A DNA stretch of 64,000 nucleotides from NCBI RefSeq assembly GCF_009914755.1, contig NC_060930.1; one strand, 5' to 3'. This stretch comes from the human T2T-CHM13v2.0 reference genome, Homo sapiens. The position numbers were made by a program, and so were the translations under genes. Positions 18,123 through 22,379 of this stretch are shown in pieces. The notes under the pieces were generated by a model. That model saw only the letters and a list, made by a program, of their open reading frames with translations. It ran no database searches and had not been told where the DNA came from. Position 1 is the stretch's first letter; each line of letters opens with the position of its first letter.

Positions 18123-18268
18123 AACGTATAATGAAGAAAACAGAAGAGTCCGAATCACAAGTGGAGCCTGAAATTAAGAGGAAAGTACAACAGAAACGGC
18201 ACTGTAGTACCTATCAGCCTACTCCTCCTCTATCTCCTGCTTCAAAAAAATGTTTAACCCATTTAGAG
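18123..18268 (+). CDS. SENP6: SENP6 exon 8, 146 nt, [49 protein letters not shown]
   Basis: long polypyrimidine tract + AG; GAG|GTAAGT donor; phase 1 to phase 0. Confidence 0.97.
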
Positions 18269-21032: not shown

Positions 21033-22081
21033 TTATTTATGGGTAGAGTCTTGCAGATAGTATGTGATATGTAATTTGGAATTATTTAATTTTGTAAAAC
21101 GCCTTCCACTTCTACTGACCAAAGCAGGGAATGAGATTTTAATCAGTTTTTTTTTTCTCTTCAATTTTTTTTGTTTGGAGAGATTGGATGTCGCTATGTT
21201 GCCCAGGCTGGTCTTGAACTCTTGGCCCTAAAGAGTCCTACTGCGTCAGCCTCCCAATGTGTTGGGCTTACAGACCTGAGCCACCATGTCCAGGTTTAGT
21301 CAGTTTTTGTTTTCCAAAAGAAACTACACTTAACATAAAATTTTTATGAAAATTTATTTACAGTATTCTCTACTAAAACAGAGCAGTATTGAGATTCTAG
21401 TTTTTAGAGAGTTAGGTTAATAAAATGTTAATCTCTAGTTTTTATCATGAAAATTTTTTTTATCTTATTCAGCATAGTGTATCTGCATTTTGTTCGTAAT
21501 TCTCACAGAGTTCCAAGATAAATGTTTCTTAGCTGATGGAAGGCATATGGTAATAGCTCAGAACATACTTCTGTTCATATTTTAATATTGGGGATTTTAA
21601 TAGTAGGAATGTGTTTTTTCTGTTTTAGTATCAATTTTATGAGAGGAAACAGCACTTTTCCATGGAATTCTTTTCATTTAGATTTGCCCTCTTTACCTTT
21701 ATTATAGATACTAAAGTAATGGAGCCAGTCAGTACTCAGCTTGATCATATCCTCAGATTCTTGGAGACAGAATTATTTTATATATAGCTGACTGCTAGAC
21801 TAGATAGTCTTGAAAATTTCTTCCAGCATTTTGATATTAAATCCCGACTAACATTACTTATTTAGGCTCTCATGGTAGCCATGATGGTAATGATGGGGAA
21901 GAGAGGGACTTAATTTTGAGACTTGGAGGGGATTCCTTAATGATGCAGTAAAATGCCAAAATCTTTTATTTCTTTTGTTCTTTTGGAACTTAAAGTTTAT
22001 GAACACCGTGAATGTTCAAAATGTGGAAAGGAAAAAGAAAATCAGACCAAATGCCAAAGTTGTGGTGTTCTTTTTTCTAAG

Positions 22082-22379
22082 GATTTGCAAAGAAATTGCA
22101 GACAAGCTATTACTTTGAATGAGTCTACTGGACCATTATTAAGAACGTCAATTCATCAGAATTCTGGAGGACAGAAGTCACAAAACACAGGATTAACAAC
22201 CAAGAAGTTTTATGGCAACAATGTGGAAAAGGTTCCAATTGATATTATTGTGAATTGTGATGACAGTAAACACACTTATTTACAGACTAATGGAAAAGTC
22301 ATTTTACCTGGGGCAAAAATACCCAAAATCACAAACTTGAAAGAAAGGAAAACAAGTTTGTCAGACCTAAATGATCCAA
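22082..22379 (+). CDS. SENP6: SENP6 exon 9, 298 nt, DLQRNCRQ...SLSDLNDP(I)
   Basis: ttcttttttctaAG acceptor; CAA|GTAAGT donor; lies within ORF 21953..22525; matches recalled human SENP6. Confidence 0.95.

What the first reader, a model, noticed from the sequence alone, without database searches (positions are those of the whole stretch)
21962..22081. Fossil zinc-ribbon exon extension upstream of exon 9 behind a broken acceptor
Seen: the 87 intronic nt 21995-22081 are stop-free and in frame with exon 9. They encode [29 protein letters not shown], a CxxCG-x8-CxxCG four-Cys zinc-ribbon pattern. They follow a strong polypyrimidine tract (21962-86), but the junction reads taaa|GTT. The only AG (21994-95) is 1 nt out of register and would give an 86-nt, frameshifting, stop-containing extension. 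From memory (unverified), mouse Senp6 has a ~30-aa ..[18 protein letters not shown].. segment here. Inference: a one-base change destroyed the ancestral acceptor, splicing moved to a downstream AAG with a pyrimidine tract made from former codons, and this lineage lost a zinc module next to the SIM region. Residual use of the shifted AG would feed NMD.
Basis: partly seen in the sequence, partly recalled or inferred. Interest (0 to 1): 0.8.

Follow-up and report, generated by a model that had tools for sequence, protein, structure and literature searches.

The report
Fossil zinc-ribbon extension of SENP6 exon
Just upstream of a human SENP6 exon lies the decayed remnant of a 30-amino-acid zinc-binding segment that rodents, dogs, cattle and elephants still splice into the protein but that primates can no longer include.

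Summary
Bases 21995-22081 are open, in frame with SENP6 exon 9, and encode [29 protein letters not shown]. The only upstream AG (21994-95) is one base out of register; splicing to it gives a stop after 40 codons.

This is not chance. Of 249 mammalian SENP6 proteins fetched, 139 carry a 30-residue insert at exactly this junction, with the core [18 protein letters not shown] almost invariant. The human relic matches 18-24 of its 29 residues and lacks one codon.

All 15 named primate entries (13 species, lemurs to apes) have only the short form.

The short form is also annotated outside primates. In Vulpes lagopus, isoforms X2 and X4 differ only by these 30 residues plus one Ser elsewhere. So the segment is an alternative 3' splice-site extension, and primates lost the long option.

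The CxxC-x9-CxxC ribbon is old. It occurs in 48 of 119 distant family representatives with a long N-terminus, all on the SENP6 side of the tree and none on the SENP7-like side.

Its function is unknown, and the library searches found nothing on it. How the acceptor broke needs outgroup DNA.

The parts
18123..18268 (+). SENP6 exon 8. Its donor (GAG|gtaagt) serves both acceptors, and it ends in phase 0 (...CLTHLE).
   Evidence: hub annotation
21962..21986 (+). Pyrimidine-rich tract of the former upstream (long-isoform) acceptor.
   Evidence: 14 of 20 pyrimidines at -23..-4 of the 21996 start, within the range 10-19 of the 13 annotated acceptors in this window.
21994..21995 (+). The only AG here, displaced by one base from the reading frame. 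Its use gives an 86-nt frameshifting extension.
21995..22081 (+). Relic of the 90-nt exon 9 extension. It has 29 open codons, [29 protein letters not shown], homologous to the 30-aa insert of non-primate SENP6.
   Evidence: 18-24 of 29 residues identical to 37 distinct orthologous segments.
22013..22018 (+). Site of the missing codon. Orthologues read [C/Y/F/R]-C-P-K where human reads C-S-K.
   Evidence: alignment and column table. That it was a single out-of-phase 3-nt deletion is inference.
22013..22063 (+). C4 motif [17 protein letters not shown] (CxxC-x9-CxxC), the zinc-ribbon core.
   Evidence: the only such motif in six frames of the window..
22067..22081 (+). Pyrimidine tract plus AAG of the acceptor actually used. 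It is made of the last five codons of the former extension (V L F S K).
   Evidence: K is the last residue in Afrotheria, Xenarthra and Laurasiatheria.
22082..22379 (+). SENP6 exon 9 as annotated ([14 protein letters not shown]...).
   Evidence: hub annotation
22116..22118 (+). TGA reached if the shifted AG is used. It lies in exon 9, far upstream of the last junction, so the transcript is a candidate NMD substrate.
   Evidence: NMD itself is inferred.

Best explanation
Bases 21995-22081 are the disabled remnant of an alternative 3' splice-site extension of SENP6 exon 9.

In most placental orders an upstream acceptor adds 90 nt (30 aa, consensus VSEQRE[C/Y][22 protein letters not shown][K/N]) between ...HLE and DLQRNC.... 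This inserts a small four-cysteine zinc ribbon into the disordered N-terminal half of this SUMO-chain protease. The downstream acceptor, whose AG is the last codon (AAG) of the extension, gives the short isoform.

In the primate lineage the long option was lost. In human the frame is still open and all four Cys survive. However, the AG now sits one base out of register, through either a G>A change at -1 or a 1-nt deletion at the junction. One codon has also been deleted. Only the short protein (NM_015571) can therefore be made, and any use of the old AG gives a frameshift with a stop after 40 codons.

The ribbon itself is an old hallmark of the SENP6 branch of the Ulp2-like proteases and is absent from the SENP7-like branch.

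Shown: homology, the lesion, the distribution of isoforms, and the age of the motif.

Inferred:
- zinc binding;
- that the ribbon is a targeting or interaction module;
- that the loss dates to the primate stem or earlier;
- NMD of the shifted product.
For: Sequence facts.

Homology:
- 322 proteins with E<=0.001, 120 listed. The script shows 115 of those 120 with the full insert at the exon 8/9 junction. They span rodents, lagomorphs, Afrotheria, Xenarthra, caniform carnivores and cetartiodactyls. The exceptions are 4 ape entries without it and P0045, which starts inside it.
- scoring only relic residues 1-40 finds 138 proteins; 120 are listed and none is a primate.
- of 249 fetched proteins, 139 are long, 109 short and 1 truncated. 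There are 37 distinct 30-aa segments, and positions 8-25 are nearly invariant. Human matches 18-24 of 29 residues with one gap.

Primates short only. The 15 named entries cover 13 species (Pan, Gorilla, Pongo, Theropithecus, Macaca, Rhinopithecus X1 with 360 cluster members, Prolemur, Eulemur X1, Propithecus, Microcebus, Carlito, Nycticebus, Otolemur).

Alternative splicing outside primates: short junctions in canids, mustelids, pinnipeds, a bear, felids, hyaenas, a colugo, a golden mole and an elephant shrew. Vulpes lagopus X2 and X4 are identical except for the 30 aa and one Ser.

Age of the ribbon:
- phmmer of elephant SENP6 against 1.84e9 representatives.
- 48 of the best 150 carry CxxC-x9-CxxC with shared flanks ([AV][VL]CxxCGxxSx[DN]...CxxCx[RK]x[LF]P).
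- 48 of 119 representatives with more than 300 aa before the protease domain carry it, 185-585 aa upstream. Shuffled controls give 10 of 30000.
- in a tree of 118 catalytic domains, a 100*-supported split has 54 rows without the motif. Those rows include the best matches of the human chr3 paralogue's exons. The other side has 64 rows, 47 with the motif, including elephant SENP6.

Fold: AlphaFold2 on alignment A1 gives pLDDT 80-82 for residues 21-40, the ribbon, and under 60 for the flanks.
Against: - No DNA of any other mammal could be read, so the state of the acceptor and of the 3-nt deletion in other primates is unknown. The dating rests on annotated proteins only.
- Clusters at 90% identity could hide a primate long form inside a non-primate cluster. 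Also, 18 of the 138 proteins and 202 of the 322 were not listed.
- Some short models outside primates come from projection-type annotation (Ensembl/UniProt rabbit and squirrel; '-T' models). In Glires the last residue is N, which cannot supply an AG, so those short models may be artefacts.
- 'X1 is short' is weak evidence of genomic loss. Meles meles X1 is short while other mustelids list the short forms as X4/X5.
- No Pfam zinc-ribbon model reaches its cut-off: Zn_ribbon_3 scores 15-17.5 bits against 27. No PDB sequence or fold match is significant. 'Zinc ribbon' therefore rests on the C4 pattern and a medium-confidence model.
- The core of the relic has no amino-acid change in 17 codons. That is more intact than I would expect, by a rough estimate of my own, for about 60 My of neutrality. 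It may mean a later loss or another constraint.
- The representatives carry no taxon names, so 'ancient' is measured by divergence (50-87% identity in the catalytic core), not by named phyla.
Confidence: 0.85

Rival explanations
1. Chance: an open intronic frame that happens to contain four cysteines.
For: Open frames of this length are common in this AT-rich window; 18% of intronic sites have 29 or more open codons upstream.
Against: The motif occurs once in six frames of the 64 kb. The relic matches 18-24 of 29 residues of a segment found at the same exon junction in 139 of 249 mammalian SENP6 proteins. Search E-values for the relic part alone go down to 6.7e-12 (leaving out the duplicated Perognathus model).
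Confidence: 0.01
2. One reading: the upstream acceptor broke first, and splicing then moved to a downstream AAG that was newly recruited from codons in this lineage.
For: The used acceptor and its pyrimidine tract do lie in former codons. Glires, the sister group of primates among the taxa seen, end the segment in N, which cannot give an AG. Their NCBI X-numbered models listed are long.
Against: K is the last residue in Afrotheria, Xenarthra and Laurasiatheria and in the human relic. The short junction is annotated in at least caniform carnivores, felids, hyaenas, a colugo, a golden mole and an elephant shrew. Vulpes lagopus has both forms, which differ only by the segment apart from one Ser.
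Confidence: 0.12
3. The relic is not dead DNA. The old upstream AG, with its good pyrimidine tract, still competes for the exon 8 donor and acts as a poison acceptor. The frameshifted transcripts are removed by NMD, which tunes the SENP6 dose. This can be true together with the best explanation.
For: The AG at 21994-95 has 14 of 20 pyrimidines at -23..-4, inside the range 10-19 of the 13 used acceptors of this gene. The stop comes after 40 codons in exon 9. The relic core is unusually intact.
Against: No transcript data could be consulted. RefSeq lists no such exon (hub table). The tract ends 11 nt before the AG, and the -3 base is A. The intact core may equally reflect the branch point and splicing signals of the used acceptor, which must lie within it.
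Confidence: 0.2
4. The loss is recent or not fixed. It would be human- or ape-specific, and the short-only annotation in other primates would reflect annotation by projection from human.
For: The relic has no stop, no second frameshift and an unchanged 17-codon core. Several lemur entries come from UniProt/Ensembl models.
Against: NCBI X-numbered models of Eulemur rufifrons (X1, 1110 aa), Microcebus, Nycticebus, Otolemur, Theropithecus and Rhinopithecus (X1, 1112 aa) are short. None of the 120 listed of 138 segment-bearing proteins is a primate. The colugo model is also short.
Confidence: 0.1

Closest known systems
Long SENP6 isoform of non-primate placentals (for example Mus pahari X2 P0029, Elephas maximus X2 P0018, Vulpes lagopus X2 P0043)
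   Same: Same gene and same exon 8/9 junction. The relic matches 18-24 of 29 residues, with the same four Cys and the same core [14 protein letters not shown].
   Different: In human the segment is intronic, one codon shorter, and its AG is one base out of frame.
SENP7S, the short splice variant of the paralogue SENP7 that lacks the HP1-binding region (PMC5399363, search listing and abstract only; PMC4281951, passages read)
   Same: Alternative splicing of a Ulp2-type SUMO protease removes an N-terminal, non-catalytic module thought to select substrates.
   Different: That is a choice made within human cells. Here the choice exists in other mammals, and the long option has been lost from the primate genome. 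The module is a C4 ribbon, not an HP1 box. The SENP7-like branch has no such ribbon.
Generic rubredoxin-like zinc ribbons (Pfam Zn_ribbon_3 PF13248, Zn_Ribbon_1 PF13240, DZR PF12773; ribosomal bL32 and eL37)
   Same: Two CxxC knuckles, the first as CxxCG, about 20 residues long. These are the best though sub-threshold hits: Zn_ribbon_3 in 15 of 39 members at E<=1, and bL32 at E 0.0069.
   Different: For the proteins whose full tables were shown, no model reaches its curated cut-off. The SENP6 ribbon has conserved flanks of its own ([AV][VL] before the first Cys; x[RK]x[LF]P after it).
RanBP2-type / NZF zinc fingers (motif recalled from memory: W-x-C-x2-4-C-x3-N-x6-C-x2-C)
   Same: Small C4 finger of similar size. 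Low-rmsd local fold matches to RBM5 (7pcv) and ZNF265 (1n0z) fingers: 1.7-2.0 A over 23-24 columns, with E 6-7, not significant.
   Different: The loop is 9 residues, not 10. There is no conserved Trp. zf-RanBP does not appear among the Pfam hits.
SUMO-binding zinc fingers (MYM-type, HERC2 ZZ; PMC12751084, passages read)
   Same: Zinc modules in SUMO-pathway proteins, so a functional analogy is conceivable.
   Different: No sequence relation was found, and binding is untested.

Membership tests
Fossil (disabled) coding segment / pseudo-exon extension | Homologous to a segment that is coding at the same gene position in other species | tested here: met
   139 of 249 SENP6 proteins carry it between ..HLE and DLQRNC..
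Fossil (disabled) coding segment / pseudo-exon extension | A lesion that prevents in-frame inclusion in this genome | tested here: met
   the AG is one base out of register, and there is no other AG between 21949 and 22028. The two in-frame AGs further in (22029-30, 22044-45) would drop the first CxxC and have purine-rich upstream sequence.
Fossil (disabled) coding segment / pseudo-exon extension | Absent from this species' transcripts | not testable with these tools
   Only the hub's RefSeq table was available, and it lists no such exon. No RNA-seq or EST data.
Fossil (disabled) coding segment / pseudo-exon extension | Relaxed constraint after the loss | not testable with these tools
   Needs primate DNA. 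At protein level there are 4 substitutions and a missing codon in the flanks, and none in the 17-codon core.
Alternative 3' splice-site extension | Long and short forms in one species that differ only by the segment | tested here: met
   Vulpes lagopus X2 (1144 aa) against X4 (1115 aa). These are gene models, not reads.
Alternative 3' splice-site extension | In-frame length and an AG at both sites | tested here: inconclusive
   90 nt (30 aa) is in frame. The downstream AG is inferred from the last residue K and is seen directly only in human. The upstream AG of other species was not seen.
C4 zinc ribbon | Two CxxC knuckles with a short loop, all four Cys invariant | tested here: met
   C23, C26, C36 and C39 are the only invariant columns in 39 sequences; invariant in 37 placental segments.
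C4 zinc ribbon | Match to a curated zinc-ribbon family above its cut-off | tested here: not met
   the best hit is Zn_ribbon_3 at 15.1-17.5 bits against a cut-off of 27.
C4 zinc ribbon | Zinc-ribbon fold | tested here: inconclusive
   pLDDT 80-82 over residues 21-40, with short strand bridges; 0 of 85 Foldseek matches at E<=0.001.
C4 zinc ribbon | Binds zinc | not testable with these tools
   Needs metal analysis of a recombinant segment.
RanBP2-type/NZF finger | Trp before the first Cys, a 10-residue loop with Asn at a fixed place (motif recalled), and a Pfam zf-RanBP match | tested here: not met
   the loop is 9 residues and position -2/-1 is A/V-V/L. There is no zf-RanBP hit.
SENP6 (Ulp2-type Peptidase_C48) | C48 catalytic domain; orthology of the gene | tested here: met
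   Peptidase_C48 at E 1e-30 in the orthologues. The hub annotation names the gene; elephant SENP6 maps exon by exon onto this locus.

The most novel reading that the evidence does not exclude
The 30-residue ribbon is an ancient, regulated targeting module of the SENP6 lineage. It would be a reader of some chain, protein or nucleic acid, switched in and out by the choice of acceptor. Primates have lost it for good, so human SENP6 is wired differently from the mouse protein used in most in-vivo work. In addition, the surviving upstream AG in human would act as an NMD-coupled poison acceptor that sets the SENP6 dose.
Probability: 0.2. Interest if true: 0.8.

Novelty: new member of a known kind. 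Interest (0 to 1): 0.55.

Why it matters
SENP6 is the main poly-SUMO chain editor, acting on centromere, PML and DNA-repair substrates. How it finds its substrates is described as not understood (PMC4281951, passage read).

The listed rodent models (for example Mus pahari X2) and most other placental SENP6 proteins carry a conserved four-cysteine module that human SENP6 cannot make. The module goes back far beyond mammals on the SENP6 branch.

Neither the module nor the human/rodent difference turned up in five full-text searches.

It gives a concrete, testable candidate for a targeting element. It also warns against carrying mouse results over to human. Finally, it is a clean example of a lineage losing one arm of an alternative splice choice while the coding fossil remains legible.

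Tried and rejected
1. Complex prediction. Chains: ribbon residues 12-52 of A1, a SUMO2-like ORF from a human retrocopy, and Zn. Score 0.04 against the mark 0.34, verdict 'no answer'. The alignment was not used by the tool. This is no evidence either way.

2. Foldseek against PDB: 0 of 85 matches at E<=0.001.

3. PDB sequence profile: best E 0.0069 (bL32), nothing at 0.001 or below.

4. Pfam: only generic zinc-ribbon models, below their cut-offs. zf_UBZ hit 10 of 39 members at E<=1 (best 0.00023). I do not treat that as membership.

5. ESM Atlas for the taxa of two distant carriers. The nearest clusters were 'Sentrin-specific protease 6' (Chordata), Platyhelminthes and Arthropoda. This is too indirect to name phyla.

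6. Own-genome searches. DNA found only the locus itself. Elephant SENP6 protein found the gene, the chr3 paralogue and old retrocopies; the chr6:57.91 Mb retrocopy lacks residues 231-352, so it says nothing about the ribbon.

7. A profile search of the human genome for a ribbon relic in the paralogue was not accepted by the tool and was dropped.

9. Literature: 'SENP6'+'zinc finger'+'isoform' gave 94 papers, of which 15 listings were seen. 'SENP6'+'zinc ribbon' gave 2, both with single mentions of each term. The core peptide string gave 0. 'SENP6'+'splice variant' gave 33, of which 12 listings were seen. 'Senp6'+'mouse'+'human'+'exon'+'primate-specific' gave 3. No listed title or abstract start concerns this. 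Of the two papers opened, PMC4281951 does not contain the word 'zinc', and none of PMC12751084's seven 'zinc finger' passages concerns SENP6. Neither mentions a SENP6 splice variant.

10. I considered and rejected in-frame use of the inner AGs (22029-30, 22044-45). Both lose the first CxxC and have purine-rich upstream sequence.
Full report
THE OBSERVATION

A pyrimidine-rich run lies at 21962-21986, followed by ggaacttaaa and then GTTTATGAA. Bases 21995-22378 translate without a stop to [29 protein letters not shown] followed by the exon 9 peptide [14 protein letters not shown]..., and the frame is open from 21944. Exon 8 ends on a whole codon...CLTHLE, so an extension of exon 9 must be a multiple of three.

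The only AG between 21949 and 22028 is 21994-95. It gives an 86-nt extension that reads FMNTVN... and stops after 40 codons at TGA 22116-18. The two in-frame AGs further in (22029-30, 22044-45) would drop the first CxxC and have purine-rich upstream sequence.

The open frame alone is not remarkable. In this window 18% of random intronic sites have 29 or more open codons upstream and 7% have 46 or more. The stop-free pattern CxxC-x9-CxxC, however, occurs once in all six frames of the 64 kb, and it is here.

WHAT IT IS

A search with the relic plus exon 9 found 322 proteins at E<=0.001, of which 120 were listed, all SENP6. Reading the junction in each, 115 of the 120 carry an insert between ...HLE and DLQRNC..., typically [30 protein letters not shown]. 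They come from rodents (including Mus pahari), lagomorphs, Afrotheria, Xenarthra, caniform carnivores and cetartiodactyls. Four ape entries go straight from HLE to DLQRNC, and one unnamed model (P0045) starts inside the segment.

Scoring only relic residues 1-40 found 138 proteins. Of these, 120 were listed and none is a primate.

Over all 249 mammalian proteins fetched, 139 are long, 109 short and 1 truncated. The 37 distinct long segments are all 30 residues, except that one (Rhynchocyon) lacks the first four. Positions 8-25 ([18 protein letters not shown]) are almost invariant.

The human relic matches 18-24 of its 29 residues. It differs by S>Y, Q>H, I>V and by one missing residue where [C/Y]CPK has become CSK. 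A single out-of-phase 3-nt deletion would explain both the gap and the P>S; this is inference, since no orthologous DNA was seen. The fourth cysteine ligand is kept only because the variable residue before the ribbon is Cys in this lineage.

WHO LOST IT, AND WHAT WAS LOST

A search centred on the gorilla exon 8/9 junction (454 hits, 120 listed; junctions read) shows the short junction in all 15 named primate entries. They come from 13 species:
- apes: Pan, Gorilla, Pongo;
- Old World monkeys: Theropithecus, Macaca, Rhinopithecus (X1, 1112 aa, a cluster of 360 members);
- lemurs: Prolemur, Eulemur (X1, 1110 aa), Propithecus, Microcebus;
- tarsier: Carlito;
- lorisiforms: Nycticebus, Otolemur.

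No New World monkey is named; they may sit in the large cluster.

The same call shows that the short junction is not a primate invention. It is annotated in canids, mustelids, pinnipeds, a bear, felids, hyaenas, a colugo, a golden mole, an elephant shrew and some Glires models. In Vulpes lagopus, isoforms X2 (1144 aa) and X4 (1115 aa) are identical except for the 30 residues and one Ser elsewhere.

The last residue of the segment is K in Afrotheria, Xenarthra, Laurasiatheria and the human relic, and N in Glires. If that K is AAG, as it is in human (22079-81), it supplies the AG of the downstream acceptor, and the codons before it (I/V-L/P-F-S/P) supply its pyrimidine tract. No orthologue DNA was seen to confirm the codon.

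The simplest reading is that the segment is an alternative 3' splice-site extension of long standing. Primates, perhaps already the common ancestor with the colugo, lost the upstream option.

Caveats:
- These are gene models of mixed quality.
- Short models in Glires cannot use an AG at that place and may be projection artefacts.
- Clusters at 90% identity and the unlisted rows (202 of 322; 18 of 138) could hide exceptions.

HOW THE ACCEPTOR BROKE

Orthologues start the segment with Val (GTN), so the exon should begin at G 21995, preceded by AG. Human has AA there. A G>A change at -1 (...ttaag|G to ...ttaaa|G) and a loss of one G at the junction (...ttaaag|G to ...ttaaag|.) both give the human sequence. 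In the second case the AG is the ancestral one and the lesion is a frameshift of the exon rather than a broken acceptor. This cannot be told without outgroup DNA, which none of the tools holds.

The old AG still has a fair context. It has 14 of 20 pyrimidines at -23..-4, against 10-19 for the 13 used acceptors of the gene in this window. Residual use, followed by NMD, is therefore plausible but untested.

THE RIBBON IS OLD

A phmmer search with elephant SENP6 against 1.84 billion cluster representatives (6916 hits, best 150 returned, no names) gave these results:
- 49 proteins carry C..C-x7-12-C..C, and 48 have exactly nine residues in the loop.
- They share flanks that the mammalian segment partly keeps: [AV][VL]-C-x-x-C-G-x-x-S-x-[DN]-x3-C-x-x-C-x-[RK]-x-[LFI]-P.
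- Among the 119 representatives with more than 300 residues before the protease domain, 48 carry the motif, always upstream of the domain by 185-585 residues.
- Shuffled versions of the same proteins give the pattern in 10 of 30000 trials.

I then built a FastTree of 118 catalytic domains. It used 117 representatives plus the elephant anchor. I left out 33 of the 150 that had no catalytic hit, fewer than 300 residues before the domain, or fewer than 250 from its start. The tree splits with 100* support into two sides:
- a side of 54 rows, none with the motif;
- a side of 64 rows, 47 with it.

The motif-free side holds the representatives closest to the exons of the human chr3 paralogue, P0290, P0286 and P0297. 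By its position this paralogue is SENP7 (my knowledge, not a call).

The other side holds elephant SENP6, an 11-row group around it, and a 47-row group of long-branched, more distant proteins, 39 of them with the motif.

The 17 motif-free rows on the SENP6 side may be short isoforms or partial models. P0252, for instance, is the closest relative of the elephant long form. The root is not known and FastTree support is local only, but the ribbon clearly predates the split between mammalian SENP6 and those distant relatives. The taxa are not given. Two ESM Atlas look-ups pointed loosely to chordate, flatworm and arthropod clusters, which is a lead only.

WHAT KIND OF MODULE

In an alignment of 39 carriers the four Cys are the only invariant columns. 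AlphaFold2 on that alignment gives a mean pLDDT of 60, but 80-82 for residues 21-40, which form a compact knot with short strand bridges; the flanks are disordered.

No curated family claims it:
- Pfam gives only generic zinc-ribbon models below their cut-offs: Zn_ribbon_3 at 15-17.5 bits against 27, hit at E<=1 by 15 of 39 members.
- The PDB profile search peaks at bL32 with E 0.0069.
- Foldseek finds nothing at E<=0.001. The low-rmsd local matches are zinc knuckles of MetRS and RanBP2-type fingers, at E 3-7.

I therefore call it a rubredoxin-like C4 zinc ribbon by pattern. It is not a member of the RanBP2/NZF family: the loop is 9 residues rather than 10, there is no Trp, and there is no Pfam hit. 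That family's motif is recalled from memory.

Its function is unknown. My best guess is a targeting or interaction module, because it sits in the long non-catalytic N-terminal half (185-585 residues upstream of the protease domain), is switched by splicing, and is strongly conserved where it is used.

IS IT KNOWN?

The isoforms are in public protein databases, which is where the searches found them. Five full-text searches turned up nothing on a SENP6 zinc ribbon, a SENP6 isoform of this kind or a primate loss. The core peptide string occurs in no paper of the library.

The 2014 SENP review does not contain the word 'zinc' and mentions splice variants only for SENP2 and SENP7 (PMC4281951, passages). 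It states that how SENP6 is targeted is not understood. A 2025 review lists SUMO-binding zinc fingers but none in SENP6 (PMC12751084, passages). Subscription-only papers and supplements were not searched.

ONE THING I CANNOT EXPLAIN

If the long form was lost on the primate stem, the relic has drifted for some 60 My or more. Yet 17 consecutive core codons show no amino-acid change, while the 12 flanking codons show four changes and a deletion. By my rough estimate (not a tool result), two to four replacements would be expected in the core. The core lies 16-69 nt upstream of the used acceptor, where its branch point must be, and that may account for the conservation. A later loss, or continued use of the region in unproductive splicing, are the alternatives.

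VERDICT

- It is wrong or untested on the order of events.
- It understates both the breadth of the loss (all sampled primates) and the age of the module.

Noticed in passing
outside the window: proteins P0202-P0245 (felids) and P0189-P0192, P0204-P0207 (hyaenas): All listed felid and hyaena SENP6 models, including the X1 isoforms (1112-1115 aa), have the short junction. No feliform appears among the listed long forms. This may be a second, independent loss of the long isoform in Feliformia, or merely missing RNA evidence.
   Followed up: no
own genome G000:C6:57910471-57912016 (- strand): An old, stop-ridden SENP6 retrocopy (39-64% identity to elephant SENP6). It passes from residue 230 straight to residue 353, so it lacks the whole of exon 9 with or without the extension. 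A further fragment lies at C6:61994092-61994475.
   Followed up: partly
P0003 (Perognathus longimembris isoform X8, 1328 aa): This model holds the exon 8 / ribbon / exon 9 region twice (junctions at residues 270 and 447). That explains its outlying E-values. It is either a tandem duplication or an assembly or model artefact.
   Followed up: no
P0045 (unnamed, 296 aa): A transcript-derived model that begins [24 protein letters not shown]. The start codon lies inside the segment and the first residues are read in another frame, so it is probably a truncated or mis-started model.
   Followed up: no
P0043 against P0178 (Vulpes lagopus), residue 153: The two isoforms also differ by one Ser (QS-LDQ against QSSLDQ). 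This is the signature of a 3-nt tandem acceptor elsewhere in the gene.
   Followed up: no
window 35870 and 56266 (acceptors): Two other SENP6 acceptors in the window have long in-frame open stretches upstream (32 and 28 codons). Given the 18% background this is probably chance, and they were not searched for homology.
   Followed up: no
P0054 (Rhynchocyon petersi): This elephant-shrew model reads ..THLEREYCPKCG.., so its ribbon segment lacks the first four residues (VSEQ). Another elephant shrew (Elephantulus, P0188) has the short junction. Acceptor use may vary within Afrotheria.
   Followed up: no
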